From NCBI GenBank assembly GCA_023512375.1, contig JAILZS010000005.1, positions 19,370 through 83,369 on the forward strand: a stretch of DNA of 64,000 bases, read 5' to 3'. Source of the DNA: Bacillota bacterium. GTDB taxonomy: Bacteria; Bacillota; Sulfobacillia; JAJZYS01; JAILZS01. Below, piece after piece: positions 5,873 to 37,548 of the stretch; within the stretch, counting starts at the first letter, position 1; every line of letters begins with the position of its first letter. The translations under genes were made by a program, and so were the position numbers. Below the pieces are notes generated by a model. It was not told the origin of the DNA and searched no databases. It worked only from the letters and a program-made list of their open reading frames with translations.

Positions 5873-8261
<2,389 letters not shown>

Positions 8262-10107: not shown

Positions 10108-13100
10108 GTGGGCGATCCCGGCGTCGGTCCCGAGGTCGTGCCAGTGGGCGGGGGCGGCGGCGCCGCTCCCGGAGTCGGTGCGAGGAAGGGGGAGGGGCAG
10201 GGCGGCGAGGGCGGCTACGACCCCTCCCGCCACTTCGGCTCCGACCTGGCGTACAAGGTGTTCTTGGACCGCTATACCAAGAAGGACATCGAGCGCCGCT
10301 TCCGCGTGGGCGACGTGGCGCTGGCGCTCGTCCTGGACGATCCGCAGTGGCCGCGCAAGGAGGTGGCGCGCGTCCTGCGGGTGGACGGCGACGAGCTGGA
10401 GCTCGAGATCGTCACCGGTCCGGAGAAGGGCGAGCGCATCCGGCGGGAGCGCAGCGCCTGCGACCGCCCGGTGGAGACCACGCCCGAGGCGGTGTGGCGC
10501 CGGGTGGCCGACGCCCTGGCGGAGGTGGAGCGCGAGGAGGTCCGCCCCCTGTGGCGGGAGCGCTTCTACGAGGCGCTGTCCGGGTGGAAGTTCGTCCCCG
10601 GCGGGCGCATCCTGGCTGGAGCGGGCATGGGTAACCTCACGCTGTACAACTGCTACGTCGTCCCCAGCCCCCGCGACTCCCGCCAGGGCATCATCGAGAC
10701 CCTGGGACAGATGATCGAGATCATGTCCCGCGGGGGAGGCGTGGGCATCAACGTCTCCTCCCTGCGTCCGCGCCGCGCCGTGGTGCGGGGCGTGAACGGG
10801 CGCTCGAGCGGGGCGGTCTCCTGGATGGACCTGTACTCGCGCGCCACGGGCTTGGTGGAGCAGGGAGGCAGCCGCCGCGGCGCCCTGATGCTCATGCTCC
10901 ACGACTGGCACCCCGACCTTCTGCGGTTCATCGACGCCAAGCGCACGCCCGGCATGGTGGAGAACGCGAACATCTCCGTGTGCGTCTCCGACGCCTTCAT
11001 GCAGGCGGTCAAGCGGGACGAGATGTGGGAACTCCGCTTCCCCGACACGGACGACCCCGATTACAACGCGCTGTGGACCGGTGACCTCGAGGCGTGGGAG
11101 CGGGCCGGCAAGCCCACGATCACCTACGACCGGCGCCCGGCGCGGGAGATCTGGCAGCGCCTGATCGAGAGCGCCTGGGCCAGCGCCGAACCGGGCATCG
11201 CCTTTCTGGAGCGTTCGAACAAGCAGTCGAACTCCTGGTACTTCCACCCCCTCATCGCCACCAACCCGTGCGTCACCGGCGACACCCTCATCTTCACCGG
11301 CCAGGGCCTGCGGCGGGCGGACGAGCTCTTCCTGTCCCACACGCCGGTGGAGGCGGTGGTGGACGGGCGCATGAAGGCGGGGCGGACGGCCGCGGCATCG
11401 CCCGTCTTCCTCACCGGCCTCAAGCCGGTGGTGCGCGTGCTCACGCGCGAGGGATACAGCGTTCGCGTCACGCCCGACCACCGGATCTACTCCGACGAGC
11501 GCGGCTGGGTGCCGGCGGCCGAGCTCAGGCGGGGGGAGGCCGTCCGCATCCTCGACCATCCGGGCGGCTTCGGTACGGAAGGGAGCGAGGACCTGGGGCG
11601 CGTCCTCGGCTACATGTCGGTGGCGGCGAGGCGGCGCGGCGACACGCTGCGGCTCGCCTTCGCCCCGGAGCGCCAGGCGGAGCTGGAGCCCCTCCTCACG
11701 GCTTGCGTGCGTCGGCTGGGCGGGGTGGGGGAGGACGCCGCCGGTGCCGGCGGCCCGGCCCGGCGCAGCCGAAGCGCCGCCATGGTGGGACATCAGCTGG
11801 GTGAGATCGCCTTCGCCCACGGCCTGGGCGTGGGCTCGCCCGCCGTGCCCGACGCCGTGAGCCGCGGCAGCGAGGCGATGCAGCGCGGCTACCTGCAGGC
11901 GGTGTTCGAGGCGGGGGGCTACCTCTCCCAGGCGCGGGGGCGGCCCGTGCTCACGGCGCGCGCGCCTGCCGGGCTCTTGCGGGGCGTGCAGCAGCTGCTC
12001 CTCAACATGGGCATCGCTTCCCGCCTGCGCACGGCGCGCGGGCATGAGCTGGACGACAACCTCCCCGCCTTGCTCACGTTGGAGCGGGAGGGCCTGCTCC
12101 GCTTCTGCGCCGTCGTGGGCGCCCTGTCGCCCAGCCGGCGCGGGGCGCTGGCGGACGCGGCGGCGGAGCTGCGCCGCCACCCCCTGGCGCCCGAGCGCTA
12201 CGTGGCCCACGTGGAGCGCGTGGTGGAGGACGGCATGGAGGCGGTCTACGACCTCACGGAGCCGGAGACCCACTCCTTCGTGGCGGGCGGCCTCGTGGTG
12301 CACAACTGCGCCGAGCAGCCCCTGCCGGCGTGGGGCGTCTGCTGCCTGGGGCACGTCAACCTCTCCCGCTTCGTGGCGGAGGGCGAGGTGGACTGGGACG
12401 GGCTGAGCCGCACCGTGCGCGCCGCCGTGCGCTTCTTGGACAACGTGGTGGACGCCACCCCGTACTATTTCGAGGAGAACGCCGCCACCCAGAAGGGCGA
12501 GCGGCGCCTGGGGCTGGGCACGATGGGGCTGGGGGAGGTGCTCATCCGCCTGGGCATGCGCTACGGCTCGCCCGAGTCGGTGCGCTTCATCGACCGCCTG
12601 TACGCCTTCATCGCCCACGAGGCGTACGCCGCCTCCTGCGACCTGGCCGAGGAGAAGGGCGCCTTCCCCCTCTTCGACCCCGAGCGCTTCCTCGAAAGCG
12701 GCTTCATGCAGGGCATGCCGGAGGACATCCGCGAGCGCGTGCGGACCAAGGGGATCCGCAACGTCACCCTCCTCACGCAGGCACCGACGGGGACGGTGGG
12801 CACGATGGTGGGCACCTCCACCGGCATCGAGCCCTTCTACGCCCTCAAGTACCTGCGCCAGAGCCGCCTGGGGGTGGACGAGCAGTACGTCGCGGTGGCG
12901 GAGGAGTGGATGCGCGACCACCCCGGGGAGCCGTTACCGCCGTACTTCGTGGGCGCCATGGATCTGACGCCGGACGAGCACATCCGCGTGCAGGCGGCGG
13001 TGCAGCGCTGGACCGACTCGTCCATCTCCAAGACGGCCAACGCCCCCGCCGACTACACGGTGGAGGACACGCGCCGCCTGTACGAGCTGGCCTACGACCT

Positions 13101-22327: not shown

Positions 22328-22426
22328 ACGCGGCGCGGCCCCGCACACCGGCGTCCGTCGCTTGCGGCGATGTCGCGGCGCGCGTAGAATTGCGTCTTGC
22401 GGCGGCGACGCCGCCGGGAGGGCGAC

Positions 22427-22897
22427 GTGGGGCGCGAGCAACGGACCGTGGCGGAAAACCGTCGGGCGCGCTTCGACTACGCCATCGTGGAGACGATGGA
22501 AGCCGGCCTGTGCCTGACGGGCAGCGAGGTGAAGTCGCTCCGGCTGGGGCGGGTGAACCTGCGCGACGCCCACGCATTGGTGCGGGGGGGCGAGGTGTTC
22601 CTCCTGAACGCCCACATCGCGCCGTACGAGCAGGCGAACCGGATGAATCACGACCCCACGCGCTCCCGCAAGCTCTTGCTGCACCGGCGCGAGATCGACC
22701 ATCTGGAGGGACGCGTGCGCCAGCAGGGGCTCACCCTGGTGCCGTTGCGGGTGTACTTTACGCCCCGGGGCCTGGCCAAGGTGGAGATCGCCCTCGCACG
22801 CGGCAAGCGCCGATACGACAAGCGCCAGAGCATGGCGGAGCGCGACGCCCAGCGCCAGATTGCGCGCGCCCTGCGACAGCGCCAGCGCGGCGGCTAG
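22427..22897 (+). CDS. smpB: SsrA-binding protein
   Basis: NRRARFDY, LTGSEVKSLR, RKLLLHRREI, GKRRYDKR. Confidence 0.97.
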   Translation: MGREQRTVAENRRARFDYAIVETMEAGLCLTGSEVKSLRLGRVNLRDAHALVRGGEVFLLNAHIAPYEQANRMNHDPTRSRKLLLHRREIDHLEGRVRQQGLTLVPLRVYFTPRGLAKVEIALARGKRRYDKRQSMAERDAQRQIARALRQRQRGG

Positions 22898-22924
22898 GGG
22901 CGACGGCCGAGAGCGAAAAGGTTT

Positions 22925-23277
22925 GGGGGCGAGTCAGCTTCGACATCGGGCGATCCGGACGAGGACGCGAGCCGGGGGGCCGGGCCCCGTCAACAACACG
23001 GCGTTCCTTACCTGCCAACCGCAACAGCGAACTGGCACTCGCGGCGTAACGCCGCGACGTCCCGGGACCCGCAGGCCCGCGGCGACCTGAGGACGTAACG
23101 TAGCGGGATGCCGCACGCGGATGCCCGGCCGCGGGCGAAAGACGCATCCGGGCTGGGAAGGCGGACGACCCCGTCCTCGGGGGCGCCGCGGACGACAAGC
23201 GTACGAGGACTACGCTCGTAGGGGATTCGTCGGGATGCCCGGTGGACCGGGGGGGCAGTTCCCCCGCGCCTCCACCA
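22925..23277 (+). ncRNA. ssrA: tmRNA (one-piece), tag peptide ANRNSELALAA encoded at 23014-23049
   Basis: GGGGGCG/CGCCTCC acceptor stem with G3-U wobble, 3' ACCA, TTCGAC near 5' end, tag ending LAA-stop, directly after smpB. Confidence 0.92.
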
Positions 23278-23309
23278 ATGTTCTTCGCACGATGGGGACG
23301 GGGGATGGC

Positions 23310-23963
23310 ATGGCGATCGCCGACGGGCCCGGGCAGCGCCTACCGCTGTTGGTGGTGGCCACGACCAACCCGGGGAAGCGGGCGGAGTTTGCCCGCCTGT
23401 TGGCGTCGCTGCCGTGGAAGGTGGCGGACCTCTCCCTCGCCGGCGACGGCTACGTGCCCCCGCCGGAGGACGGCGAGACCTACGCGGACAACGCGCGCAC
23501 GAAGGCGCTTGCGGCAGCTCGGGCCAGCGGCCGGGTGGCGCTGGCGGACGACTCCGGCCTGGAGGTCGAGGCGCTTGACGGGGCGCCCGGCGTCCACTCG
23601 GCGCGCTATGGGGGCGAGGGGCTGGATGACGGTGGGCGGGTGCGGCGGCTGTTGGAGGCGCTGTCCGGCGTACCGGCGTCCCGGCGGGGAGCCGCCTTCG
23701 TCGCCCACCTCACTGTGGCCTCGCCGGACGGGCGGGTGCTGGCGGAGGTCGAGGTTGCCGTGGGCGGACGGATCGCGTTTGCCCCGCGCGGACACGGCGG
23801 CTTCGGTTACGACCCCGTGTTCGAGCCCCTGGGCATGGGGTGCACGATGGCGGAACTGGCGCCCGCGGCCAAGGACCTGTTCAGCCACCGGGGGCGGGCG
23901 ACGCAGCTTCTCCTGCCCGCCCTCCGGCGTCTGGCGCTGGATGTTCGGGCCGCATCGGCCTAG
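23310..23963 (+). CDS. rdgB: non-canonical purine NTP pyrophosphatase (RdgB/HAM1)
   Basis: ATTNPGK, EDG.TY.DNA..KA, ADDSGL, PGVHSAR, GFGYDPVF, SHRG. Confidence 0.92.
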   Translation: MAIADGPGQRLPLLVVATTNPGKRAEFARLLASLPWKVADLSLAGDGYVPPPEDGETYADNARTKALAAARASGRVALADDSGLEVEALDGAPGVHSARYGGEGLDDGGRVRRLLEALSGVPASRRGAAFVAHLTVASPDGRVLAEVEVAVGGRIAFAPRGHGGFGYDPVFEPLGMGCTMAELAPAAKDLFSHRGRATQLLLPALRRLALDVRAASA

Positions 23964-23979
23964 AATGGCGAAGGGTTTG

Positions 23980-24054
23980 CGGGGCGTGGCGCAGGGGTAG
24001 CGCACCAGCTTTGGGAGCTGGGGGTCGTGGGTTCGAATCCCACCGCCCCGACCA
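23980..24054 (+). tRNA. tRNA-Pro(TGG)
   Basis: CGGGGCG acceptor, anticodon arm CCAGC-TTTGGGA-GCTGG, GGTTCGAATCC, encoded CCA. Confidence 0.95.
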
Positions 24055-24629: not shown

Positions 24630-25079
24630 TCATCCATTCGGGCTGGGTGTGCCGACGGTTGAAACAGCCGACAGAGGCCGGCCAGGCATCGCCACCACGA
24701 GGTGGCGCCCTTTCGCAGCTGCCACAAGGCGCTCGTCATAGGCAACGAAGGCTTGAAGTTCTTGGCTCTCGAGAGCCAAGAGTTCCGCCGTGGCTAGATG
24801 AATGGCGTCCAAGCTGCGAAGGTTCGCATCGTCATATGCTGCTGCCATGGCCCGAATCCGCGCGTCGATTTCCATGCGATAGAGCCGGGCCATCACCCCA
24901 GGAACGTTGACGAGAGCAGTCGGATCGTACCGGCGGACGGCACGAGCTACCTCGACCTCCGCAAGGAAAGAGGAGACCAGGGGTGCTGAAGCCCTCTCCC
25001 GGAGCCATGCCAGGAGGCTGGGCGTTTCCCGCTCGAAACGAACGAGTTTGACAAGGGCCGACGAGTCGAGGTAGATCAT
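24630..25079 (-). CDS. vapC: type II toxin, VapC/PIN domain
   Basis: MIYLDSSALVKL, EVEV.RA, LRSLDAIHLATA, YDERL. Confidence 0.9.
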   Translation of the reverse strand: MIYLDSSALVKLVRFERETPSLLAWLRERASAPLVSSFLAEVEVARAVRRYDPTALVNVPGVMARLYRMEIDARIRAMAAAYDDANLRSLDAIHLATAELLALESQELQAFVAYDERLVAAAKGRHLVVAMPGRPLSAVSTVGTPSPNG

Positions 25080-25357
25080 GCACGCTCCTGTTCGCGGTCG
25101 CTCACCAGTAGGGCGGCAACGTCCCTTTCCGGGTGTGCGTTACGCGGAGGCGTGGGAAGGGGCCCTTCTGCCGTAGGGGCGATCGCCATACCCGTGGCGA
25201 CCGCGCGATTCAGGTAGGATGAGCCGTGCGGAATGGGAATCAGGCGGGCGATGGGCCGCCCGTCGCGGGTGATGGTCACTGCCTGACCTTGGGCTACCCG
25301 GGCCAGGATGGCACTCGTATGCTGGTTGAGCTCACGCACAGGGATTTGTTGCTCCAT
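25076..25357 (-). CDS. type II antitoxin, Phd/YefM family
   Basis: IPVRELNQHTSAIL.RV..G..VTITRDGRPIARLIP; 4-bp overlap with toxin. Confidence 0.88.
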   Translation of the reverse strand: MEQQIPVRELNQHTSAILARVAQGQAVTITRDGRPIARLIPIPHGSSYLNRAVATGMAIAPTAEGPLPTPPRNAHPERDVAALLVSDREQERA

Positions 25358-25415
25358 CCGGGCCTCCAGCCAAGATGTCGGGGGTCGGTAGGTAGACGCC
25401 GTATCTGGCCTCATT

Positions 25416-25434
25416 GTAGAACGATGTGTTCTAC
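25416..25434. promoter_or_regulatory. palindromic putative TA autoregulatory operator
   Basis: GTAGAAC-GATGT-GTTCTAC upstream of the antitoxin. Confidence 0.55.
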
Positions 25435-25865
25435 CCATCAAGTTCTTCTCTTCACGGGCGGGTAGGGCGCGGGTCGGAAGGCAAGCGCTATACCTCGTTG
25501 TCATCGGGCCCACCCGTCCACCCAACGCCCGGCAAGTAGCGGGAGAGAGCGAAGCGCCGTTCACCCGGGATGACAGCGTTAGGGTGCCGCCGACAGGACG
25601 ACCCTCACCGGTGTAGCCGTGGTCGTCGTCCGTCCCCATGGACTGTCGCACGCCGCCACCGGCCGGAGGCGGCTTCACGACAACCGAGACGAGGCCACCC
25701 GCCGCCTCGTCGCCGCGGTCGGCTGGCCCGCGCCCCATGCACGCCGGGCATCGCGTGTGCTCTTGGCGGCCACATCGGTCGGTCCTTGCGGTCACCTCCC
25801 CAGGTCAGCCCCTCGCGCTGAGACGCCCTCGCCACGCGTCGCTCTCTTGCCCTACCCCTGCGGCC

Positions 25866-25894
25866 TTGACGAAGGCAGCGGCCGATGATACATT
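25866..25894 (+). promoter_or_regulatory. sigma-A type promoter
   Basis: TTGACG-N17-TACATT with extended -10 TG at 25886-25887. Confidence 0.8.
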
Positions 25895-25906
25895 GCGGCG
25901 CGTACA

Positions 25907-25967
25907 GGGCGATGGAGGCCGCCCGGGCTAGGCCCGAACCGCCGCGCATGCGGCTGATGACTCCTAG
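25907..25967 (+). promoter_or_regulatory. fluoride riboswitch (crcB motif) aptamer
   Basis: GGGCGATGGAGGCCGCCC...AACCGC...GCTGATGACTCCTA: P1 GGGCG/CGCCC, GGAG/CTCC pseudoknot, conserved GCTGATGAC. Confidence 0.88.
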
Positions 25968-25990
25968 GGTATCCTAGGGGTTCGTTTTTT
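25959..25990 (+). terminator. riboswitch expression-platform intrinsic terminator
   Basis: GACTCCTAGG-GTAT-CCTAGGGGTT hairpin followed by CGTTTTTT; 5' arm overlaps the aptamer 3' end. Confidence 0.8.
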
Positions 25991-26030
25991 GCTGCCCCAC
26001 GGCGGTTGGGAATGGTCAGGAGGGGAACGG

Positions 26031-26981
26031 ATGGTCCCGTCGGCGGCCGCGATCCTGGCTCAGGTGTGCGCCGTGCTCTTCGTGCTCGCATTGTCGCCGC
26101 TTCTGCGCGGCATCCTCGAGCGCGCCAAGGCGCGGCTCCTCTTCCGTCAGGGCCCGCCCGTGGTCCAACCGTACCGCGATCTGCGCAAGTGGTTCGCGAA
26201 GGAACGCCTGCGAAGCCCTTACGCCACGTGGCTTTCCGGGTTCTCCCCCTTCGCGTACTTCGTCGCGCCCCTGCTCGTGGCGTCCATGATCCCGGCGCTC
26301 ACCGCCTTCCCGCTCCCGTTCGCGTTCACGGCGGACATGCTCGGCGCCGGTTTCGTCCTGGGCGGCGCGGGCCTTTTTCTGCTCCTCGCTGCGTTCGAGT
26401 CGGGAAGCGCGTTCAGCACCCTCGGCGTGAGCCGCGTGCGCCTCGTCGGGGTGTTCACTGAGCCGATCGCCTTCCTCGCCGTCTTCGCCGCCTCGGCGTC
26501 GGCCCACGCCACCATCCCCTTCGTGGTGAACCAGGTGATGAGCCGCACCCCGTGGCTTTGGTCGCCCACCCACGTGCTCCTCATGCTGGCGTGGATCCTT
26601 CTCCTGTTGGCCGAGACGGGCCGCATCCCGGTGGACAACCCCGCCTCGGCGCAGGAATTGTCTCTCATCGACCCGGCGCGCACGTTCGAGGCTGCCGGCC
26701 CCGATCTGGCCCTCTACGAATGGGGTGGCTGGATGAAGTTCATGGTCCTCACCATTGTGCTGGCCAACGTCCTGTTCACGCCGTTCGGCCTGGCCACCTC
26801 CCTCACCGTGCCCGCGTTGGCGCTCTCTGCCGCGGTCGTGTTCGCCAAGCTCGTCCTGGTGGGCTTGGCCGTCGTCGCGGTGGAGGTCGCGTTCGCCAAG
26901 CTCCGCCTCCTGCGCATCCCCGAGTACTTGTTGGCGGCCGTGCTCATCGCCGCCGCCGCCGGCGCCGCCGCGTCCCTCTGA
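26031..26981 (+). CDS. hyfC: Ehr/hydrogenase-4 membrane subunit (HyfC/HycD, NuoH-like)
   Basis: RQGPPVVQPYRDLRKWFAKE, AETGRIPVDNP, E..FAKLRL; multi-TM. Confidence 0.85.
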   Translation: MVPSAAAILAQVCAVLFVLALSPLLRGILERAKARLLFRQGPPVVQPYRDLRKWFAKERLRSPYATWLSGFSPFAYFVAPLLVASMIPALTAFPLPFAFTADMLGAGFVLGGAGLFLLLAAFESGSAFSTLGVSRVRLVGVFTEPIAFLAVFAASASAHATIPFVVNQVMSRTPWLWSPTHVLLMLAWILLLLAETGRIPVDNPASAQELSLIDPARTFEAAGPDLALYEWGGWMKFMVLTIVLANVLFTPFGLATSLTVPALALSAAVVFAKLVLVGLAVVAVEVAFAKLRLLRIPEYLLAAVLIAAAAGAAASL

Positions 26982-26997
26982 TTCGAAGGAGGTCGCC

Positions 26998-27651
26998 ATG
27001 CCCCTACCCGCGCTGACCGGACTGTTCGCCTTCGCCGGCTTCGCCCTGCTCGCCCTGTCGAGCGGCTCCATCCTCACCCGCGACCCGCGCCAGACCGTGG
27101 CCCTGTACGCCCTGGCGTCCGTACCCCAGGCGGGAATCGCCGCCCTCCTGGCCGTCCTCTTCGGCCACGTCGAGCTCTACGCGCTGGCGGCCGCCATCCT
27201 CGTGCTCAAGGGGCTGATCGCGCCGCGGCTCCTCGTCGTTCCTTGGCCCAAGATGCATCATCCCCACTACGGCCTCACGGGCCACCTCGGGACGCCGGCC
27301 TCCCTGGCCGTGGTCGTGGGCATCCTCATGTTCGCCTACCGCGTCTCGGTCGTCCTCGCCCCCCCGGCCCTGGAGACGGCGATGGCCGCCACCATGGCCT
27401 CCGGCCTTGTCGGGCTCCTCGCCCCCGCGGTCCGGCACGAGCTCGCCGCCCAGGCGGCGGGGCTCCTGCACGGGGAGGCCGGCATCACCGCCACCGCCCT
27501 CTTGTTGGTGGGCCACCTCCCGGTGGCGGCGGACGTGATCTCGATCGCCGAACTCCTCGTCCTCGCCCTCCTCCTCGGCGTGCTCCTGGCGCGCGTGATC
27601 CGCATCCACGGTCGGGCGGACGCCAGCCTCCTCACGGTGCTGCGGGGATGA
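26998..27651 (+). CDS. hyfE: Ehr/hydrogenase-4 membrane subunit (HyfE-like)
   Basis: Hydrophobic ~217 aa, VLKGLIAP motif, C-terminal L..LRG; operon position. Confidence 0.7.
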   Translation: MPLPALTGLFAFAGFALLALSSGSILTRDPRQTVALYALASVPQAGIAALLAVLFGHVELYALAAAILVLKGLIAPRLLVVPWPKMHHPHYGLTGHLGTPASLAVVVGILMFAYRVSVVLAPPALETAMAATMASGLVGLLAPAVRHELAAQAAGLLHGEAGITATALLLVGHLPVAADVISIAELLVLALLLGVLLARVIRIHGRADASLLTVLRG

Positions 27652-29117
27652 GCGCGCTCATGGCGGTGTACGCGCCGGCCGCCTGGCCGGCGCTGGGTGC
27701 GCTCGCCATCGCCGCCCTGCCGGCGCGATGGTCGCGCCTTCTGGCCCGGGCGGTGGCGGCGGGCCTCGGGGTACTGGCCGTGTGGTGCGGCGCTTTGGCC
27801 TTGGGCGGGCGGGCGCCGTGGGACGCGCTCTCCCTGTGGCTGCTCCTCCCGGGCCTGGGGTTGGGCGCTTTGGGACTGTGGGCGTCGGACGCGCTATTGG
27901 CCCGGGAGGCGGGGCACGCCGACGTCTCGCCCGAGCGCAGGCTCGTGCTCGAGCGGCGCTACCTCGCCCTGTACAGCGCGTTTGCGGCGACGATCGCCCT
28001 GGTGGCCTCGGCCGACGGCATCCTGCTCATGTGGGTGGCGGTGGAGGGGACGACCCTGGCCTCGGTGCTCCTGGTCGCCCATCCGCGCCTGCCGACCTCG
28101 GTCGAGGCGGCGTGGAAGTACCTCGTGGCGACCAGCGTGGGCGGCCTGTTGGCCCTTCTCGGCACGGTGTTCATCGCCTCGGCCTGCCACGTGTCGCTGG
28201 GCGCCCCGCCGGGCGTGCTGCCCGCACCGCTGGCGGCCCCCGCCGTCCCCGCCGCTCTCGTGGGGTTCGCCTTCGCCGCCGTCGGCTTCGGCACCAAGGT
28301 AGGACTCGCCCCCATGCACGGCTGGCTCCCGGACGCCCACAGCGAGGCGCCGGCGCCGGTGTCGGCCCTGCTGAGCGGCATCGAACTGGCCACGGTGCTC
28401 TACGCCCTCACCCGTCTGGAGCGCATCGTCGCCATCGCCACCGGATCCGCCTGGCCGGGGCGGTGGCTCGTCATCTTCGGCCTTCTGTCCCTTGCGCTCG
28501 CGGCGCTGTTCATCGGCGTGCAGCGGGACCTCAAGCGGGCCTACGCCTATTCCAGCGTCGAGCACATGGGACTCGTCGCGCTCGGGGCCGGGGTGGGCGG
28601 CATGGCGGTGGTCGGTGCCCTCCTCCACGTCTGGACGCACGCGTTTACGAAGAGCGGCCTCTTCCTCGCGGCAGGGAACGTGCGCCACCGCTTCGGCGCC
28701 GCCAAGCTGCCCGAGGCCGACCATCTCCTGGGCGCCATGCCCCGTACCGGCTGGGCGGTGGCCCTCGGCACATGGGCGATCGCCGGCCTGCCACCCTTCG
28801 GGCCGTTCTTCAGCGAGTGGCTCATCCTGCGCGGCGCGGTCCGGCAGGGGGACGCGGCGGCGGCCGCGGCCGCCGCCGCCCTCCTGGCCGCCGTGGCGGT
28901 GGGACTCGGCCGCCAGGTGCCGCGCATCCTTCTCGGCGGTCGCCGACCGCGGCAGCCCGTCGCCGGCCGGGGGGCGGCATGGGAGACGGCGGGCGAGCTG
29001 TGGCCCATGGCGGCGCTCACGCTCTTCGGCCTGGCAGCGGGCGTCGCCGTCCCCGCCGCCTTTGGGCACGTCCTGAGGCACGCCGCCTCTCTCGCGCAGG
29101 GGGGGATGGGACGATGA
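27648..29117 (+). CDS. hyfF: Ehr/hydrogenase-4 antiporter-like subunit (HyfF; NuoL/M/N, MrpD-like)
   Basis: WVAVEGTTLAS, EAAWKY, GFGTKVGLAPMHGWLPDAHSEAPAPVSALLSG, AYSSVEHMG, H.FTKS. Confidence 0.88.
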   Translation: MSALMAVYAPAAWPALGALAIAALPARWSRLLARAVAAGLGVLAVWCGALALGGRAPWDALSLWLLLPGLGLGALGLWASDALLAREAGHADVSPERRLVLERRYLALYSAFAATIALVASADGILLMWVAVEGTTLASVLLVAHPRLPTSVEAAWKYLVATSVGGLLALLGTVFIASACHVSLGAPPGVLPAPLAAPAVPAALVGFAFAAVGFGTKVGLAPMHGWLPDAHSEAPAPVSALLSGIELATVLYALTRLERIVAIATGSAWPGRWLVIFGLLSLALAALFIGVQRDLKRAYAYSSVEHMGLVALGAGVGGMAVVGALLHVWTHAFTKSGLFLAAGNVRHRFGAAKLPEADHLLGAMPRTGWAVALGTWAIAGLPPFGPFFSEWLILRGAVRQGDAAAAAAAAALLAAVAVGLGRQVPRILLGGRRPRQPVAGRGAAWETAGELWPMAALTLFGLAAGVAVPAAFGHVLRHAASLAQGGMGR

Positions 29118-30541
29118 GGGTCGAGGAGTCGGCGGTCGTCGGGGTGCGGCCGGAGGCGTTCGGCGCCGAGGTGCACCGCCGCCTACGCCACGCCCGCCCG
29201 AGCGAAGACGCGCCGGTGGGCACGAACCTCATCGCCCTGTGGGAGGTGCGCGAGGGCGGCGAGGTGCTGGTGGAGGCCGTCCTGGAGGAGGGCGACGCGG
29301 TGGTGCGCCTCCAAGCGCCCTGGCGGCCGGAGCTCGTGTGGCCGAGTGAGGCGGGGGCGCGCGAAACGGCCCTGGAGGAGGCGCGCCTCATGGCGGTGGC
29401 GCAGGGGGAGGGGCGGTACGGGACCGGGCCGGCGCACGCCGTGGCCGCCCGGGGGGCGTTCACCTTCCCGATCGGTCCGGTGCGGGGCGACGTCATGGAG
29501 TCGGCGGCCCTCACCCTCACGGGCATGGGCGACGAGGTCCTCGGCCTGCGCGTCGACCTGGGCTGGAAGGTGCGGCGGGTGCAGCAGGCGGCGGTGGGCC
29601 TTCCCGTCGCCGAGGCGGTGCGAGTGGTGGAACACACCACGGCCACGTCGGCGGTGGCGCACGCCCTCGCCTTCAGTCAGGCGGTGGAGGCGGCCCGGGG
29701 GCGCCCCGTGACAGGGCGTGCGGCCGTCCTGCGCAGCATCCTGGCCGAGATCGAGCGCGCGCACAGCCACCTCCTCGACCTGGCCTCCCTGGCCGGGGCC
29801 ACCGGCCTGCCCGCCGCACAGCAGGAGCTCATGGCCCTGCGCGAGTCGGTCCTGCGCACGGCGTACGCCCTCGTCGGCCACCGCTACCTGCGCGGGGCGG
29901 TGGCTCCCGGAGGCCTTGCCGTCGACCCCGGGGACCGAGCCTGGGTAGAGGCGGCCATGGCCGTGGTGCGCCTCGGCCCCGCTTTGGACCGGATCGTGGC
30001 CGATCTCGACGCCACGCCCTCGTTCCTCGACCGCCTGCACGCGGCGGGCATCGTCAAGAGCCACGAGGCGGTCGAGATGGGCGCGCTGGGCCCGGTGGGC
30101 CGGGCGAGCGGCAGCGGACCCGACTGCCGGCGCCACCGACCGTACGCCGGGTACGTCGGCCACCCCCCTTCGCCCCTGCCGTACGACCACGCGGGCGACG
30201 CCTGGGCCCGTTGGCGGGTGAAGACGGCGGAGGTGCGAGCCAGCCTGTCCTGGCTCGAGCAAGCGGCGGTCTCGCTTCCCGACCGGTGCCGGGAGGAGGC
30301 GGACCCGATCCCTGCCGGTGGGGACGGTTGGGGCCTGGGCCGGGCCGAAGGTCCCCGCGGCGAGGTGGTGTACGCCGTGCGGCTCGACCCGGAGGGCAGG
30401 ACGGCGGGCGTCTGGGCCCGCACCCCGTCCCTGCGCAATTGGGCCCTGCTCCCCGTCGCGGTCGCCCGGCGCAACGTCCTGCAGGACGTGCCGATCATCG
30501 AGGCGAGCTTCGCCCTGAGCGCGGCCGGCAGCGACATGTGA
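29114..30541 (+). CDS. hydrogenase large-subunit/NuoD-like protein lacking Ni-binding CxxC motifs (EhrL-like)
   Basis: GPVRG, AEIERAHSHL, GHRYLRG, GPVGRASG, GDAWAR, EGPRGE, RTPS..NW; L1 region reads EHTTATSAVAH, C-terminus SFALSAAGSDM. Confidence 0.85.
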   Translation: MRVEESAVVGVRPEAFGAEVHRRLRHARPSEDAPVGTNLIALWEVREGGEVLVEAVLEEGDAVVRLQAPWRPELVWPSEAGARETALEEARLMAVAQGEGRYGTGPAHAVAARGAFTFPIGPVRGDVMESAALTLTGMGDEVLGLRVDLGWKVRRVQQAAVGLPVAEAVRVVEHTTATSAVAHALAFSQAVEAARGRPVTGRAAVLRSILAEIERAHSHLLDLASLAGATGLPAAQQELMALRESVLRTAYALVGHRYLRGAVAPGGLAVDPGDRAWVEAAMAVVRLGPALDRIVADLDATPSFLDRLHAAGIVKSHEAVEMGALGPVGRASGSGPDCRRHRPYAGYVGHPPSPLPYDHAGDAWARWRVKTAEVRASLSWLEQAAVSLPDRCREEADPIPAGGDGWGLGRAEGPRGEVVYAVRLDPEGRTAGVWARTPSLRNWALLPVAVARRNVLQDVPIIEASFALSAAGSDM

Positions 30542-30634
30542 GGAAAGGAGAAGGGGAGGGTCGCCGCCGGGAGGGGCCGGCGACGCCGGCCCGACGCCCA
30601 TTCCGGCAACATTCGGGATGGAGGAGGTACAGGT

Positions 30635-31195
30635 GTGATCTACCCGGGGTTCCTCCGCGCCCTGCGCCGTGGTCCGGCGACCACCCGCTACCCGTTCGGC
30701 GACGATCCCGGCGCAGGTCCGGCGCCTACGCCCGCTCCCGTCTCCGCCACGGGCACCGTTCCGGCCTCGCCGCTTCGCCTGTCGCTCGCCATCCGCCACG
30801 TCGACGCCGGGTCCTGCAACGGGTGCGAGAGCGAGATCGCCATGCTGGCCAGCTGCGTCTACGACCTCACGCGACTGGGGTTCGTGTTCACGCCCTCGCC
30901 GCGCCACGCGGACCTCCTCCTCGTCACCGGCGTGGTGACCGAGGCCATGGTGCCGGTGCTCCGCCAGACCTACGAGGCGATGCCCGCCCCCAAGCGGGTG
31001 GTGGCGGTCGGGGGGTGCGCGCTGGGCGACTCGCTGTTCGCCCTCCAGCCCGGCGTGCGGGGCACCCTCGAGGGGGTGGTGCCGGTGGACGTGCGGGTGC
31101 CGGGTTGTCCCCCCACCCCGCGCGCCATCCTCGATGGCATCCTGGAGGCGGTCGGGCGCACGCCGGCCTGGGCAAAGGAGGCGGCGGCGCGATGA
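30635..31195 (+). CDS. hyfI: hydrogenase small-subunit/NuoB-like Fe-S protein (EhrS/HyfI-like)
   Basis: HVDAGSCNGCE, SPRHADLLLVTG, VGGCALG, VPGCPP. Confidence 0.88.
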   Translation: MIYPGFLRALRRGPATTRYPFGDDPGAGPAPTPAPVSATGTVPASPLRLSLAIRHVDAGSCNGCESEIAMLASCVYDLTRLGFVFTPSPRHADLLLVTGVVTEAMVPVLRQTYEAMPAPKRVVAVGGCALGDSLFALQPGVRGTLEGVVPVDVRVPGCPPTPRAILDGILEAVGRTPAWAKEAAAR

Positions 31196-33195
31196 CGTGG
31201 GCGCTCCCGGCCTTGGCCGCGGTCGCCTGGTTGGTCGGCGCCGCCGCCCCCCCCGCGCGCCGGGCGGCGTTGTGCGCGGGCGGCCTGGCTGTGGCGGCGT
31301 GGGGGGCGGCGGGGCTCATGGGCGTGGGCGGGTGGACGCTCGCCCTGCCTTCGCCGCTCCCCTCCCTGTCCTTCACCCCCGGCGGGGTCGGCGGCCTGTG
31401 GCTCCTTCTCCTAGGAGCCTTGGGTTTCGCCCTCGGCTTGTTGCTCGAAGACGGCCGCGGGGGTAGGATGGCGCGCCCGGCCACCGCTTCGCTCGCCCAC
31501 CTGACGCTTCTCATGGGGGCGGGCGTGCTGGCCGCGACGACGCCGTTCGCGCTCCTCACCGCCTGGGAGGCGATGTCCGGCCTGACCTACCTCCTGTTCC
31601 TGGCCGCCCGGCCCGGCCGGCGCGTATACGCCGCCTCCTTCCTGCTCCTATGGGTCTCCGAGGCGGGGGCGGCGGCGCTCTACGCGGTGGCCCTCTTCTC
31701 GCAGGGCGGGGGCGCAGGGGCGTTGGGCGCCCTGACACCGGGGGTGCGGCTTACCCTCGCCCTCCTGGCGGTAGCGGCGTTCGGCACCAAGGCGGCGCTC
31801 GTCCCCTTCCAGCTCTGGCTTCCGGTGGCGGAACCGGAGGCCCCCGGGGCGGTGGCGGGGTTCCTCTCCGGAGCGCTCACCGCGGTGGCCTTTGCGGCCC
31901 TCCTGCGCGTCATCGCGTGGCTTGACGCACCCGCGCTCCCCCTCGGCGCGGCGGTGGGCGGGCTGGGGCTGGCCGGCCTGAGCATCGGCGCGCTCGGGGC
32001 GCTGTTCGACGGCGACACAAAGCGCATCCTGGCCTTCGGCACGGTGGAGGCGATGGGCGCCGCCTTCCTCGCCCTCGGTCTGGGCCTGTTCCTGCGCGCC
32101 CTCCACGCCCCGGCGCAGGCGGCGACCGCGTTCGTGGGGGCGGCCACGCTCGTTTTCGCGCACGCCGGCGGCAAGCTGTCTCTGTTCGCCGCCGCGGGCG
32201 AGGTGGAGGCGGCCGGGGGCGGCCGGCGCCTCGACGCCCTGGGCGGGCTCATGGCTCGAATGCCGTGGACGGGGGCGACCGCCCTGGTTGGTGCCCTGGG
32301 CCTGGCGGGTATGCCTCCGCTGGGGACGTTCGTCGGCGAGTGGCTCCTCCTGGAGTCCCTGTTCATGCCCCTGCCCGAGGCCGCCGGCGTGCACGTCCTG
32401 CTCGCCATGCTGGGCGCGGCCGTGGCCGTCCTGGCGGCGCTGTCGCTCACCGCCTACCTCCGCTGGTACGGTACGGCCTTCCTCGGTCCCGGACGGAGCG
32501 GGCGCGCCGTGGGCGTAACCGAACGGCCGGGGTGGCCGCGGGTGGGGCTCGCGGTCGCCCTCCTCCCCCTGGCCGCGGCGGGGATCGCCACTCCCTGGCT
32601 GGTGCCCCTGTGGCAGGCGGCGTACGCTCCCGGTCCGGCCGTCGTCCTGCCCCTGTTCCGCGCCCCGCAGCTCAGCCCCACCCTGGTCGGGGTGGGCGCG
32701 GCCGTGGGACGGGGTCTACCGGGAGCGACCGGGGTGGTGCTCACCCCCGGGGGCGGGTTCTCCGTCCTCTCGCCCTGGGACCTCACCTGGATCGCCCTCG
32801 GCTTGGGCGCCGTCGTCTACCTTCTCGTGCGCCTAGGGGCTACCGGCATGGCGCGCCCGCCCCGCCGCACCGCACCCTGGGCGGGCGGCCGCGCCACCTA
32901 TGCCCCGGCCATGACCTACACGGCGGAGAGCCTGAGCCATCCCCTGCGCCTTTCCCTCGCCGCCTGGGCGGGGGTGAGGGCCGAGCGGCCGAGCGTCCTG
33001 GGCGGCCGGGCGCGGCGCTACCGGGTGCGCTACCGCGACCGCCTGTGGACGTACGGCTATCTGTGGCCCGCCCGGGCGGTGACGGCGCTTGCCGACGCCT
33101 TCCGCAACTGGCAGAGGGGATCGGTGGCCCAGTACGTGGCGTCCATCCTCCTCGCCCTGGCGGTGGCGGCGATCGTGAGCTCCTTCGCCCGCTGA
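31192..33195 (+). CDS. hyfB: Ehr/hydrogenase-4 antiporter-like subunit (HyfB-like)
   Basis: AWEAMS, FGTKAALVPFQLWLP.AEPEAP, KRILAFGTVE, HAGGKLSLF, GMPPLGTFVGEW, MTYTA. Confidence 0.82.
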   Translation: MTWALPALAAVAWLVGAAAPPARRAALCAGGLAVAAWGAAGLMGVGGWTLALPSPLPSLSFTPGGVGGLWLLLLGALGFALGLLLEDGRGGRMARPATASLAHLTLLMGAGVLAATTPFALLTAWEAMSGLTYLLFLAARPGRRVYAASFLLLWVSEAGAAALYAVALFSQGGGAGALGALTPGVRLTLALLAVAAFGTKAALVPFQLWLPVAEPEAPGAVAGFLSGALTAVAFAALLRVIAWLDAPALPLGAAVGGLGLAGLSIGALGALFDGDTKRILAFGTVEAMGAAFLALGLGLFLRALHAPAQAATAFVGAATLVFAHAGGKLSLFAAAGEVEAAGGGRRLDALGGLMARMPWTGATALVGALGLAGMPPLGTFVGEWLLLESLFMPLPEAAGVHVLLAMLGAAVAVLAALSLTAYLRWYGTAFLGPGRSGRAVGVTERPGWPRVGLAVALLPLAAAGIATPWLVPLWQAAYAPGPAVVLPLFRAPQLSPTLVGVGAAVGRGLPGATGVVLTPGGGFSVLSPWDLTWIALGLGAVVYLLVRLGATGMARPPRRTAPWAGGRATYAPAMTYTAESLSHPLRLSLAAWAGVRAERPSVLGGRARRYRVRYRDRLWTYGYLWPARAVTALADAFRNWQRGSVAQYVASILLALAVAAIVSSFAR

Positions 33196-33199
33196 TCGG

Positions 33200-33510
33200 C
33201 GCGGCGTTGGCGAACGAGTGGCCGGGGATGGAGAAGCTCGGCGTGAGCGACAGGCCGGTCCACGGCGCCGTGATCTGGACGCTGTCGCCGGCCGGGAAGT
33301 CCCCGGTGGCGGAGTCGCCGCTCGCGTGCCGCGGCTCGTGGCCGCGGGCCAGGTCTGGCCGCCGTCGTCGGCGCAGGAGGTGACCACCGCGATGTCCATC
33401 GCCGTCGGGGACGAGATCGTGCCCGCGTCCGGGCTCACCGCCGTGATCTCGCCGTCGGAGACGACATGGAAGCTCTGGGCCGGCAAGGAGCCGAAGTACA
33501 CGGCCGTCGC
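33200..33510 (-). pseudogene. remnant of a surface protein with an IPT/TIG domain
   Basis: TAVYFGSLPAQSFHVVSDGEITAVSP is an IPT/TIG-like motif; no 5' end, frame breaks; boundaries approximate. Confidence 0.5.
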
Positions 33511-33512
33511 GC

Positions 33513-34285
33513 ATCCTCGAGCGCATGATCCAGGAGACGCTCGTCGTCCAGGCCGCCGCCCGCGCCCACATCGCCGTCGACTCCGCCGCCTAACGCGCAG
33601 GCGGTGAAGAGCTACCAGAGCGTCCTCGGCAAGGACTCCGCGGACGCCGCGGCCATGGACCAGGCGCTTCGCCTCGACCACCTGACGCAAAGGCGAGGTG
33701 GTCCGCTACGTAGAACTCGAGCTGGCCCTCGACGGCGTGCTGCGCAAGCTGGTGGGACAGGTGCCGGTCCCCGCCTCGGCGGTGCGGGCGTACTACCGGT
33801 CCCACCTGAGCGAGTTCTCGGCGCCGCGGGCGTACGAGTTGCGGGTCATCGTGGTCCCGACCCGCACCCAGGCGCAGGCCGTCCTGCATGAGCTCGAGAC
33901 GGACGGCGGCTCGAACTTCGGCGCCCTGGCGGAGGCCGAGTCGATCGACACGGCGAGCGCGCCCGAACAGGGCGACCTCGGGTGGGTGACGCTGTCCGAG
34001 CTGAGCGGGGCCGTGGCCCGCGCCGTGCCGCGCATGAAGGTGGGAGAGTACGCGCTGGCCTCGACGCCGAACGGTTGGGACGTGCTGCAGCTCCTCGCCG
34101 TCCGCGCCCCCGGGCGCCAGAGCCTGAGCGCGGCGACCGATGCCATCACCAAGACCTTGGCCGCCCAGCGTTTCCAGAGCGGTGTGAAGGCGTGCCTGGC
34201 GAAGCTCGCCAAGCAGGCGAGGATCCGGGTGCTCTGGCACCCGGGCGGGGCGAGCGGCGCAGGCACGGGGGGAGGCGGCGGCTAG
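33513..34285 (+). pseudogene. PrsA/SurA-like parvulin peptidyl-prolyl isomerase, 5'-truncated and frameshifted
   Basis: ILERMIQETLVVQAA (SurA_N-like), TAA at 33591, two frame changes, then rotamase motifs FGALAEAESID, QGDLGWV. Confidence 0.65.
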
Positions 34286-37474: not shown

Positions 37475-37548
37475 TGGAGCGGGTGACGGGAATCGAACCC
37501 GCGTCACCAGCTTGGAAGGCTGGCGCTCTACCATTGAGCTACACCCGC
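37475..37548 (-). tRNA. tRNA-Gly(TCC)
   Basis: Minus strand GCGGGTGTAGCTCAATGGTAGAGC...CCAGCCTTCCAAGCTGG...GGTTCGATTCCC...CCGCTCCA. Confidence 0.95.

What the first reader, a model, noticed from the sequence alone, without database searches (positions are those of the whole stretch)
25866..33195. Fluoride riboswitch switching on a Ni-less hydrogenase-related (Ehr) membrane complex: candidate energy-coupled fluoride-stress system
Seen: a near-consensus sigma-A promoter (TTGACG-N17-TACATT) is followed by a crcB-class aptamer (GGGCGATGGAGGCCGCCC...AACCGC...GCTGATGACTCCTA). The aptamer 3' end overlaps an intrinsic terminator, which is the layout of a transcriptional ON switch. Downstream are six tightly packed genes: HyfC-, HyfE-, HyfF-, NuoD-, NuoB- and HyfB-like. 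No Fluc/CrcB or CLC-F exporter gene is present in the window. Established: fluoride riboswitches usually control F- exporters; formate-hydrogenlyase-annotated genes are a reported but mechanistically unexplained association; Ehr complexes have no known function. Inference: the complex, with two Mrp/NuoL-type antiporter subunits, may export F- or offset HF-driven proton influx, which would give an Ehr complex a function.
Basis: partly seen in the sequence, partly recalled or inferred. Interest (0 to 1): 0.88.

Follow-up and report, generated by a model that had tools for sequence, protein, structure and literature searches.

The report
Fluoride riboswitch controlling nickel-less Ehr complex
A genuine fluoride-sensing RNA switch turns on six genes for a hydrogenase-like membrane complex that cannot be a hydrogenase, and the same pairing recurs in two bacterial phyla, which gives this orphan complex family a testable role in fluoride stress.

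Summary
Window 25899-25973 matches Rfam's fluoride riboswitch (41.7 bits, cut-off 34). A promoter-like site precedes it, and a terminator overlaps its 3' end. Six genes follow: HyfC-, HyfE-, HyfF-, NuoD-, NuoB- and HyfB-like.

The large subunit lacks both nickel-iron cysteine motifs, as do 38 of 38 aligned homologues. The assembly shows no HypD, CrcB or fluoride-type CLC (93% complete).

The pairing is general. Of 65 related loci with enough upstream DNA, 45 carry a riboswitch at or above Rfam's cut-off in the operon leader, and 5 more carry one just below it. They span Bacillota and Actinomycetota and use two different expression platforms.

In 59 loci, all of those named Actinomycetota, the small subunit has also lost all four iron-sulfur cysteines. 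They are replaced by D, E/D, D/E and S/A. The membrane-arm charged residues stay nearly invariant.

Best reading (0.55): a fluoride-induced, complex-I/Mrp-like ion translocator that offsets HF-driven acid load, not formate hydrogenlyase. Direct fluoride export is not excluded (0.2).

The link to "formate hydrogen lyase" genes has been in print since 2010. I found no paper identifying these operons as Ehr or noting the cofactor loss.

The parts
25866..25894 (+). Sigma-70/sigma-A-type promoter-like site: TTGACG, 17-nt spacer, TACATT, with an upstream TG
   Evidence: 9 of 12 consensus matches. One site found against 0.0 in 50 shuffles. This is a consensus match only; the transcription start was not measured.
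25899..25973 (+). Fluoride riboswitch aptamer (crcB motif, RF01734). It has a 13-nt extra hairpin (CGGGCUAGGCCCG) between P1 and P3.
   Evidence: 41.7 bits against a gathering score of 34, model positions 1-64 of 64. The conserved GGCGAUGGAG...AACCGCC...GGCUGAUGACUCCUA core is present.
25959..25992 (+). Intrinsic-terminator-like hairpin (stem 25959-25982, loop GTAT) plus T-tract. Its 5' arm overlaps the aptamer's 3' pseudoknot strand, which forms the expression platform of an ON switch.
   Evidence: 10 pairs, 5 G-C, tail CGTTTTTTGC. The minimum-energy fold contains this hairpin.
26031..26981 (+). Gene 1: NuoH/HyfC-like membrane subunit, 316 aa
   Evidence: PF00146, 1.1e-22. Shine-Dalgarno-like GGAGGGG lies upstream. 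E195, R198, E144 and E209 are conserved in 68-72 of 73 homologues.
26998..27651 (+). Gene 2: HyfE-like small membrane subunit, 217 aa
   Evidence: NF008556 'hydrogenase 4 membrane subunit', 1.8e-7, far below its cut-off. No Pfam hit. The third-position GC frame supports coding.
27648..29117 (+). Gene 3: HyfF/NuoN-M-type antiporter-like subunit, 489 aa
   Evidence: PF00361, 4.1e-49. Best solved relative is MbhH, 6cfw_H, 1.7e-31. E133, K217, K335 and E390 are kept in 73-75 of 76 homologues.
29114..30541 (+). Gene 4: NuoD/HycE-like large subunit without nickel-iron ligands, 475 aa
   Evidence: PF00346, 3.3e-27. L1 CxxC is replaced by T-A-T-S, and the C-terminal DPCxxC by EASFALS. Best solved relatives are MbhL 6cfw_L (3.3e-27) and HycE 7z0s_E (2.1e-24).
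30635..31195 (+). Gene 5: NuoB/HycG-like small subunit, 186 aa, GTG start. It retains all four cysteines of the proximal [4Fe-4S] site.
   Evidence: PF01058, 5.7e-26. SCNGCE, GGCALG and PGCPP align with the cysteine motifs of MbhJ (6cfw_J, 1.6e-32) and HycG.
31192..33195 (+). Gene 6: HyfB/NuoL-type antiporter-like subunit, 667 aa
   Evidence: PF00361, 9.6e-27. NF005086 'hydrogenase 4 subunit B', 1.4e-73, below its cut-off. E126, K200, K328 and E383 are kept in 76 of 76 homologues.

Best explanation
A sigma-A-type promoter transcribes a leader that holds a fluoride aptamer.

Without fluoride, the hairpin at 25959-25982 and its U-tract terminate transcription before the first gene. With fluoride, the aptamer pseudoknot (GGAG 25914-25917 with CUCC 25961-25964) holds the 5' arm of that hairpin. 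RNA polymerase then reads through into six co-transcribed genes.

The genes encode a complex-I-like membrane module of the Ehr kind:
- a NuoH-like subunit;
- a HyfE-like subunit;
- two Mrp/NuoL-N-type antiporter-like subunits;
- a peripheral NuoD-like/NuoB-like pair.

It has no nickel-iron site, none of the complex-I quinone ligands, and no NuoI/E/F/G-type electron input.

Inferred function: the complex moves protons or cations across the membrane to restore cytoplasmic pH and proton-motive force. HF entering the cell, and fluoride leaving it, amount to a net inward proton leak. On this reading the complex is a large analogue of the Na+/H+ antiporters already known in fluoride regulons. It is not a formate hydrogenlyase.

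Shown here: the aptamer, the platform anatomy, the gene identities, the missing ligands and the conservation of the pairing. Inferred: fluoride-dependent read-through, ion translocation, its direction and its energy source.
For: Riboswitch and platform.

Not a hydrogenase:
- 38 of 38 aligned large-subunit homologues lack both CxxC motifs.
- In the residue alignment, MbhL/HycE CGIC aligns with TATS. Nqo4 'MDYLH' aligns so that the tyrosine falls on Ala, and the loop histidine on Met. The role of those Nqo4 residues is recalled.
- No HypD was found in the assembly.
- The operon has only six genes, with no HycB/HycF/FdhF-like genes.

The pairing is conserved (80 loci from 262 relatives). Of the 65 loci with enough upstream sequence:
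- 45 have a + strand RF01734 hit at or above the gathering score, 2.9-3.9 kb upstream of the large-subunit gene, directly before the NuoH-like gene (mapped);
- 5 more have sub-threshold hits (L010, L012 and L026 at 29.9-32.8 Rfam bits; L023 and L059 at 44.4 and 32.3 bits with my own model);
- 3 are uncertain and 12 have none.

Gene order C-E-F-L-S-B is kept.

Two expression platforms drive the same operon: terminators in Bacillota and Shine-Dalgarno-sequestering helices in Actinomycetota.

Same-order relatives: 7 of 15 Ehr-bearing genomes show the leader riboswitch on the same contig. One of them (G041) has two divergent ehr operons with back-to-back riboswitches.

Ion translocation rather than redox:
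- In 59 of 79 loci, all those named Actinomycetota, the small subunit has replaced the four [4Fe-4S] cysteines with D (59), E/D (58 of 59), D/E (57; 2 gaps) and S/A (57; 2 gaps).
- Those operons are still riboswitch-controlled.
- The Glu/Lys residues of both antiporter-like subunits are kept in 73-76 of 76.
- They align with the TM5, TM7, TM11 and TM12 residues of MbhH, Mrp and NuoM.

Context: the neighbouring riboswitch-controlled genes in these loci are the classic fluoride regulon. They include a MutS-domain-V protein, pyrophosphatase, enolase, NUDIX and universal stress protein, assigned by reading the sequences. Na+/H+ antiporters are reported as the second commonest riboswitch-associated class (PMC11139923, passages).
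Against: - No experiment or RNA data bears on this operon.
- The ion, the direction of transport and the driving force are unknown.
- A complex with no redox ligands needs another energy source, which I cannot name.
- In this window the small subunit keeps all four cysteines, so a redox role here cannot be excluded.
- 12 of 65 loci show no leader riboswitch.
- 28 of 79 Ehr-bearing genomes have no CrcB hit.
- 15 genomes, including this one, were checked for CLC. None showed the CLC-F signature motifs.
- In 3 of 30 genomes the only Rfam fluoride riboswitch is the ehr leader.

The last three points are what a direct exporter would predict.
Confidence: 0.55

Rival explanations
1. The complex is itself an energy-coupled fluoride (or HF) exporter. 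It would be a third kind of fluoride efflux system beside Fluc/CrcB and CLC-F, using its antiporter-like subunits to couple proton influx to fluoride extrusion.
For: - This assembly (93.2% complete) and the same-order genome G041 (96% complete, two riboswitch-ehr operons) have no CrcB hit and no CLC with CLC-F signatures.
- 28 of 79 Ehr genomes lack a CrcB hit.
- In 3 of 30 genomes the ehr leader is the only Rfam fluoride riboswitch.
- Exporters are the commonest riboswitch targets (PMC11139923, passages).
Against: - 51 of 79 Ehr genomes do have CrcB. In some loci the crcB pair sits next to ehr (L025) or diverges from it with its own riboswitch (L045).
- Most of the genomes are metagenome bins of unstated completeness, so missing small genes are weak evidence.
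- The invariant membrane residues are Glu/Lys pairs typical of cation and proton paths. No anion site is evident.
- CLC-F detection used three published motifs only.
Confidence: 0.2
2. In this organism the complex is a redox-driven proton pump. A soluble donor reduces the retained [4Fe-4S] cluster, and the pump is induced to replace fluoride-sensitive energy conservation. The cofactor-less actinobacterial forms would have diverged in mechanism.
For: - All four cluster cysteines are kept in the window and in 20 Bacillota-type loci.
- The nearest solved relatives are the redox-driven MBH and FHL.
- The genome has no Mrp. Only complex I and this operon carry PF00361 subunits.
Against: - There is no NuoI/HycF-like relay, no donor module and no acceptor site. 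Nickel-iron and quinone ligands are absent.
- No redox partner is encoded nearby.
- The riboswitch link persists in relatives that have lost every ligand. The shared function is therefore unlikely to need electrons.
Confidence: 0.15
3. The genes are a true formate hydrogenlyase or hydrogenase-4, induced as a metabolic shift to fermentation under fluoride. This is how reviews read the annotation.
For: - Sources name homologues 'formate hydrogenlyase subunit 5' or 'hydrogenase-3 subunit E'.
- The 2024 review interprets the association this way (PMC11139923, passages).
Against: - Both nickel-iron motifs are absent in 38 of 38 homologues.
- No HypD in the assembly.
- No formate dehydrogenase or ferredoxin-like subunit genes in the operon.
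- No NCBIfam model reaches its cut-off.
Confidence: 0.03

Closest known systems
Transcriptional fluoride riboswitch of Bacillus cereus crcB (RF01734)
   Same: Same aptamer family, with an intrinsic terminator overlapping the aptamer's 3' end and ON logic (PMC8752731, passage read).
   Different: It controls a six-gene Ehr operon rather than a Fluc channel gene. The aptamer carries an extra hairpin between P1 and P3.
Ehr (Ech-hydrogenase-related / energy-converting hydrogenase-related) complexes, e.g. Geobacter sulfurreducens GSU0739-45
   Same: A hydrogenase-like large subunit without nickel-iron cysteines, a small subunit, a HyfE-like subunit, and NuoL-like membrane subunits. Function is stated as unknown (PMC7894505, PMC10284858 and PMC6349859, passages).
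   Different: None of the Ehr papers I read mentions fluoride. Here the operon is riboswitch-controlled, and there is no adjacent formate dehydrogenase like the one proposed for some Ehr.
'Formate hydrogen lyase' genes listed as fluoride-riboswitch-associated (Weinberg 2010; Baker 2012 as cited by the 2024 review)
   Same: This is very probably the same association (PMC2864571, passages; PMC11139923, passages).
   Different: Those papers use the annotation at face value. The sequences here cannot bind nickel-iron, and in Actinomycetota they cannot bind iron-sulfur either. I could not read Baker 2012 or any supplement.
E. coli formate hydrogenlyase / hydrogenase-4 (Hyc/Hyf; PDB 7z0s) and Pyrococcus MBH (PDB 6cfw)
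   Same: Homologous subunits. The nearest solved structures are MbhL 3.3e-27, HycE 2.1e-24, MbhJ 1.6e-32 and MbhH 1.7e-31.
   Different: No nickel-iron ligands, no HycF/MbhN-type ferredoxin subunit, no HycB/FdhF, and no HypD in the assembly.
Mrp-type multisubunit cation/proton antiporters, and the Na+/H+ antiporters of fluoride regulons
   Same: Two MrpA/D-type subunits with the conserved Glu/Lys set. Fluoride-riboswitch control is as reported for Na+/H+ antiporters.
   Different: No MrpE/F/G. Instead there is a NuoH/NuoD/NuoB-like module. Antiport has not been shown.

Membership tests
Fluoride riboswitch (Rfam RF01734, crcB motif) | Covariance-model score at or above the curated gathering score over the full model | tested here: met
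   41.7 bits against 34, positions 1-64 of 64.
Fluoride riboswitch (Rfam RF01734, crcB motif) | Located in a 5' leader, with an expression platform that competes with the aptamer's 3' strand | tested here: met
   The promoter-like site ends 5 nt upstream. The terminator's 5' arm (25959-25968) lies within the aptamer. The first start codon is at 26031.
Fluoride riboswitch (Rfam RF01734, crcB motif) | Binds fluoride and changes gene expression | not testable with these tools
   Needs in-line probing, a termination assay or a reporter assay.
Ehr complex | Group-4-hydrogenase-like large subunit that lacks the cysteines coordinating nickel and iron | tested here: met
   L1 is TATS and L2 is EASFALS. 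38 of 38 homologues lack both motifs. The definition comes from PMC6349859 and PMC10284858.
Ehr complex | Small subunit plus Mrp/NuoL-like, HyfE-like and NuoH-like membrane subunits in one cluster | tested here: met
   The order C-E-F-L-S-B is conserved in the related loci.
Formate hydrogenlyase / hydrogenase-4 (Hyc/Hyf) | Nickel-iron-binding CxxC motifs in the large subunit | tested here: not met
Formate hydrogenlyase / hydrogenase-4 (Hyc/Hyf) | Ferredoxin-like subunits, a formate dehydrogenase partner, and Hyp maturation genes | tested here: not met
   Six genes only, none ferredoxin-like. No partner within the 14-44 kb read. No HypD in the 93.2%-complete assembly.
Respiratory complex I | Quinone-ligating Tyr and His in the NuoD subunit, plus NuoI/E/F/G and the full membrane arm | tested here: not met
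   The Nqo4 alignment puts Ala and Met at those positions (residue roles recalled). A separate canonical nuo cluster lies on contig C98.
Mrp antiporter | MrpA and MrpD together with MrpB/C/E/F/G | tested here: not met
   Only two PF00361 subunits and no other Mrp models were hit. The complex works like Mrp at most by analogy.
Known fluoride exporters (Fluc/CrcB, CLC-F) in this genome | PF02537 hit, or a CLC with GNNLI/GMGLI, GREGT/V and GEVTP | tested here: not met
   No PF02537 hit. The single CLC has GSGGS, GREGP and GGVFAPS. Signature motifs are from PMC11139923. The assembly is 93.2% complete, so absence is not proven.

The most novel reading that the evidence does not exclude
Riboswitch-linked Ehr complexes are a distinct, complex-I-derived fluoride-resistance machine.

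The membrane arm supplies proton coupling. The former catalytic module has been re-tooled. In Actinomycetota the four iron-sulfur cysteines became a conserved Asp / Glu(Asp) / Asp(Glu) / Ser(Ala) cluster of hard oxygen ligands.

That cluster could hold a divalent cation such as Mg2+ and bind fluoride as a metal-fluoride species. It would serve as the substrate or sensor site of an active fluoride or HF extrusion system. Such a system would be the main defence in genomes that lack Fluc and CLC-F, including this one.
Probability: 0.2. Interest if true: 0.9.

Novelty: new member of a known kind. Interest (0 to 1): 0.64.

Why it matters
Two open questions meet here.

**Bioenergetics.** Ehr complexes have had no known function. 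The papers I read say so as late as 2023.

**Fluoride biology.** 'Formate hydrogen lyase' has been listed among the commonest riboswitch-associated genes since 2010-2012. It has been explained as a shift to fermentation.

The sequences show that these operons cannot make or use H2. In one phylum they have also lost their iron-sulfur ligands while keeping the ion-pathway residues and the fluoride switch.

This turns both questions into one bench experiment: does this six-gene module change fluoride tolerance, cytoplasmic pH or fluoride flux? It also offers a natural series, with and without cofactor ligands, for studying how a complex-I-type membrane arm can work without redox chemistry.

Tried and rejected
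- **Regex scan.** A plain regex for the aptamer core found leaders in only 7 related loci. I replaced it with a covariance model (R1).
- **Limits of R1.** It missed 5 leaders that Rfam later found (L024, L061, L071, L076, L083). Of 7 strong R1 leader hits rechecked (L023, L059) did not reach Rfam's gathering score. The headline count therefore uses Rfam.
- **Leader fold.** The 137-nt leader gave z = -1.39 (20 of 200 shuffles fold as well). This is uninformative, because the pseudoknot cannot be modelled.
- **Operon end.** No terminator-like site was found after the last gene.
- **RNA evidence.** No RNA holder is listed. Four DNA holders from hot-spring metagenomes in 2 studies hold the stretch, and one may be the source.
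- **Papers not held.** Baker 2012 and the 2021 Annual Review. Supplements are closed, so the published gene lists could not be compared.
- **A shared MFS exporter.** Riboswitch-linked MFS transporters in this genome and in G041 are not close homologues (26% over 77 residues), so I rejected the idea of a shared alternative exporter.
- **The genome's CLC as CLC-F.** Rejected on motifs.
- **Formate hydrogenlyase reading.** Rejected.
- **Not run.** Structure and complex prediction, judged not decisive. Covariation counting on the aptamer alignment.
- **Tree.** It is the quick version. The careful search did not finish.


Full report
**1. The observation**

The window (73% G+C) has one match to Rfam's fluoride riboswitch, at 25899-25973 on the + strand. 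It scores 41.7 bits against a gathering score of 34 and covers the whole model.

The alignment shows the conserved core and a 13-nt extra hairpin between P1 and P3.

A promoter-like site lies at 25866-25894: TTGACG, 17 nt, TACATT, with an upstream TG. One such site was found against 0.0 in shuffles.

A terminator-like hairpin at 25959-25982 is followed by CGTTTTTTGC. Its 5' arm lies inside the aptamer and includes the CUCC strand that pairs with GGAG in the pseudoknot. This is the anatomy of a transcriptional ON switch.

Because of the high G+C content, many spurious ORFs appear. A third-position GC plot and start-site reading give six genes:

| Gene | Coordinates | Length (aa) | Best family hit |
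|---|---|---|---|
| 1 | 26031-26981 | 316 | PF00146, NuoH/HyfC-like |
| 2 | 26998-27651 | 217 | weak HyfE model |
| 3 | 27648-29117 | 489 | PF00361, HyfF-like |
| 4 | 29114-30541 | 475 | PF00346, NuoD-like |
| 5 | 30635-31195 | 186 | PF01058, NuoB-like |
| 6 | 31192-33195 | 667 | PF00361, HyfB-like |

No NCBIfam model reaches its curated cut-off. The family is divergent.

**2. What the complex is not**

*Not a hydrogenase.*
- The large subunit aligns best with MbhL (6cfw_L, 3.3e-27) and HycE (7z0s_E, 2.1e-24). Where they have CGIC it has TATS.
- Its C-terminus reads EASFALS where hydrogenases carry DPCxxC.
- In an alignment of 38 of the 77 homologues found, 38 of 38 lack both motifs.
- The assembly (93.2% complete) has no HypD.

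*Not a complex I.* Against Nqo4, the positions I recall as the quinone-ligating Tyr and His fall on Ala and Met.

*No electron input.* The operon has no ferredoxin-like, HycB-like or formate dehydrogenase gene. None lies in the 14-44 kb I read.

*What remains.* The small subunit does keep the four cysteines that align with the proximal-cluster motifs of MbhJ and HycG.

*Other systems in the genome.* A canonical complex I lies on another contig. There is no Mrp system: of the five PF00361 hits, three are nuo and two belong to this operon.

By the definition in the papers I read, this is an Ehr complex: related to group 4 hydrogenases but lacking the nickel-iron ligands, with function unknown (PMC6349859, PMC10284858 and PMC7894505; passages).

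**3. The pairing is general**

A pattern search with the large-subunit alignment found 262 relatives in species-representative genomes. The best 80 loci were kept. They come from:
- Bacillota: Sulfobacillus and hot-spring bins;
- Lucifera butyrica;
- many Actinomycetota: Pseudonocardiaceae, Streptosporangiaceae, Trebonia, Acidothermus, Streptomyces, Nocardia, a Mycobacterium sp., and others.

Gene order C-E-F-L-S-B is kept.

I searched the loci with my own covariance model. I then checked them with Rfam directly and through whole-genome Rfam searches mapped back by contig coordinates.

| Leader riboswitch status | Loci (of 65 with enough upstream DNA) |
|---|---|
| + strand RF01734 hit at or above the gathering score, just before the NuoH-like gene | 45 |
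| Sub-threshold hit | 5 |
| Uncertain | 3 |
| None | 12 |

The other 15 loci are cut off by contig ends.

Two of the 12 negatives (L041, L053) come from genomes marked unpublished. Without them the count is 45 of 63.

Bacillota leaders end in terminators. Actinobacterial leaders pair the aptamer tail CCUCUACC with GGUAGAGGAGG at the ribosome-binding site. Two different expression platforms therefore serve the same operon.

Some leaders carry tandem aptamers: two in Sulfobacillus harzensis and three in Lucifera butyrica.

Among 31 genomes of the same order or class:
- 16 have the large subunit (this count includes the window's own genome);
- 7 of the 15 others show the leader riboswitch on the same contig;
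- G041 has two divergent ehr operons with back-to-back riboswitches.

On a quick tree (the careful search was unfinished), riboswitch-positive rows occur in all three main clades. Negatives sit at tips among positive neighbours.

**4. Loss of the iron-sulfur ligands**

I aligned small subunits from the window and 79 loci.
- The four cluster cysteines are kept in the window and 20 Bacillota-type loci. Four of those have Pro at the second position and extra cysteines nearby.
- In the other 59 loci, the four positions read Asp (59), Glu or Asp (58, plus one Ala), Asp or Glu (57; 2 gaps) and Ser or Ala (57; 2 gaps). All of those that are named are Actinomycetota.
- Four of the 59 are from unpublished genomes.

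These 59 rows, plus L031 whose small subunit lies off the contig, form one clade with 100% SH-aLRT support.

Those complexes therefore have neither a nickel-iron nor an iron-sulfur site. Most are still fluoride-riboswitch-controlled.

By contrast, the membrane-embedded charged residues are almost invariant:

| Subunit | Residues | Conservation |
|---|---|---|
| HyfF-like | E133, K217, K335, E390 | 73-75 of 76 |
| HyfB-like | E126, K200, K328, E383 | 76 of 76 |
| NuoH-like | E195, R198, E144, E209 | 68-72 of 73 |

In the HyfF-like subunit these residues align with the TM5 Glu, TM7 Lys, TM11 Lys and TM12 Lys/Glu of MbhH, MrpA and NuoM. The helix labels are recalled.

Selection has kept the ion pathways and let the redox chemistry go.

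**5. Fluoride exporters**

This assembly has:
- no CrcB hit;
- one CLC with the chloride-type motifs. The CLC-F signatures come from PMC11139923.

Its only other fluoride riboswitch (contig C42) precedes a dynamin-family GTPase, an unknown protein and an MFS transporter.

Across the 79 genomes behind the 80 loci:
- 51 have CrcB. In some the crcB pair is adjacent to ehr (L025) or divergent from it with its own riboswitch (L045).
- 28 have no CrcB hit.
- I examined the CLC genes of 14 of those 28, plus G041, G052 and G054. None shows the CLC-F motifs.

Most of these genomes are bins of unstated completeness, so this is a lead and not a result.

In 3 of 30 genomes the ehr leader is the only Rfam fluoride riboswitch.

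**6. Mechanism**

HF crosses membranes and dissociates in the cytoplasm. Fluoride leaving through a channel makes the cycle a net proton leak.

The review states that fluoride stress lowers cytoplasmic pH and proton-motive force. It also states that Na+/H+ antiporters are the next commonest riboswitch-associated class after exporters.

A riboswitch-induced complex with two Mrp-type subunits, intact ion pathways and dispensable redox ligands fits that class best. I put this at 0.55.

What drives it is open:
- in this clade the retained cluster allows a redox contribution (0.15 as a separate rival);
- in Actinomycetota it must be a gradient or something unrecognised.

Direct fluoride export (0.2) is favoured by the exporter-less genomes. 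It is disfavoured by frequent co-occurrence with CrcB and by the cation-type residues.

The formate hydrogenlyase reading is contradicted by sequence (0.03).

**7. Novelty**

The association is in print. Weinberg 2010 lists formate hydrogen lyase genes downstream of the crcB motif. The 2024 review repeats it from Baker 2012 and reads it as a shift to fermentation.

Seven full-text searches found no paper that links fluoride with Ehr complexes. No listed paper held both 'fluoride' and an Ehr term.

I could not read Baker 2012, the original Ehr classification paper or any supplement. Prior notice of the missing ligands cannot be ruled out.

The window itself is a new member of a known association. 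The reinterpretation and the cofactor-loss series are what make it worth following.

Noticed in passing
G000 contig C42:12211-12299 (L004:3212-3300), with genes at L004:3399-7005: The genome's second fluoriderichtig riboswitch (37.2 bits) precedes a dynamin-family GTPase (PF00350), an unknown 225-aa protein and an MFS transporter (PF07690). Two MutS-domain-V genes diverge from it. A dynamin-like GTPase also follows a riboswitch in L066. G041's third riboswitch precedes an unrelated MFS transporter.
   Followed up: partly
Small-subunit genes of 59 loci, all those named Actinomycetota (e.g. L021:11482-11829, L047:11464-11868): The four [4Fe-4S] cysteines are replaced by a conserved Asp / Glu(Asp) / Asp(Glu) / Ser(Ala) set. 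This pattern is non-random and could form a cation site.
   Followed up: partly
L124 (G041 contig C171) 9160-9410: Two back-to-back fluoride riboswitches on opposite strands each lead into a complete six-gene ehr operon. The genome is 96% complete and has no CrcB hit.
   Followed up: yes
L011:6311-6374 and 6594-6674; L022:6558-6821: Tandem fluoride aptamers lie in ehr leaders: two in Sulfobacillus harzensis and three in Lucifera butyrica.
   Followed up: no
L130 (G045 contig C60) 10101-10162, with an ORF at 10202-11956: The strongest riboswitch hits in five same-order genomes (55.5-63.7 bits) lie just after the last ehr gene. In G045 the ORF that follows encodes a 584-aa protein with no Pfam family. 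An MgtC-family gene and a GPR1/FUN34/YaaH-family gene lie upstream of that ehr operon.
   Followed up: partly
window 24630-25795 (-): A PIN-domain toxin gene (24630-25079) and a Phd/YefM-type antitoxin domain ORF (25076-25795) sit directly upstream of the ehr promoter. The stretch has lower third-position GC than its surroundings.
   Followed up: partly
window 22388-24051: An ORF at 22388-22897 (probably smpB, by eye only), a tmRNA (22925-23277) and a tRNA (23980-24051) lie upstream. Another tRNA lies at 37478-37548 (-). The ehr operon sits between two tRNA genes.
   Followed up: no
L027:18537-18628; L039:6251-6342: Selenocysteine tRNA genes lie near two actinobacterial ehr operons. In L039 the tRNA occupies the leader position where other loci have the riboswitch.
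   Followed up: no
window 33196-33685: About 490 nt after the last ehr gene show no clear coding frame and no terminator-like site.
   Followed up: partly
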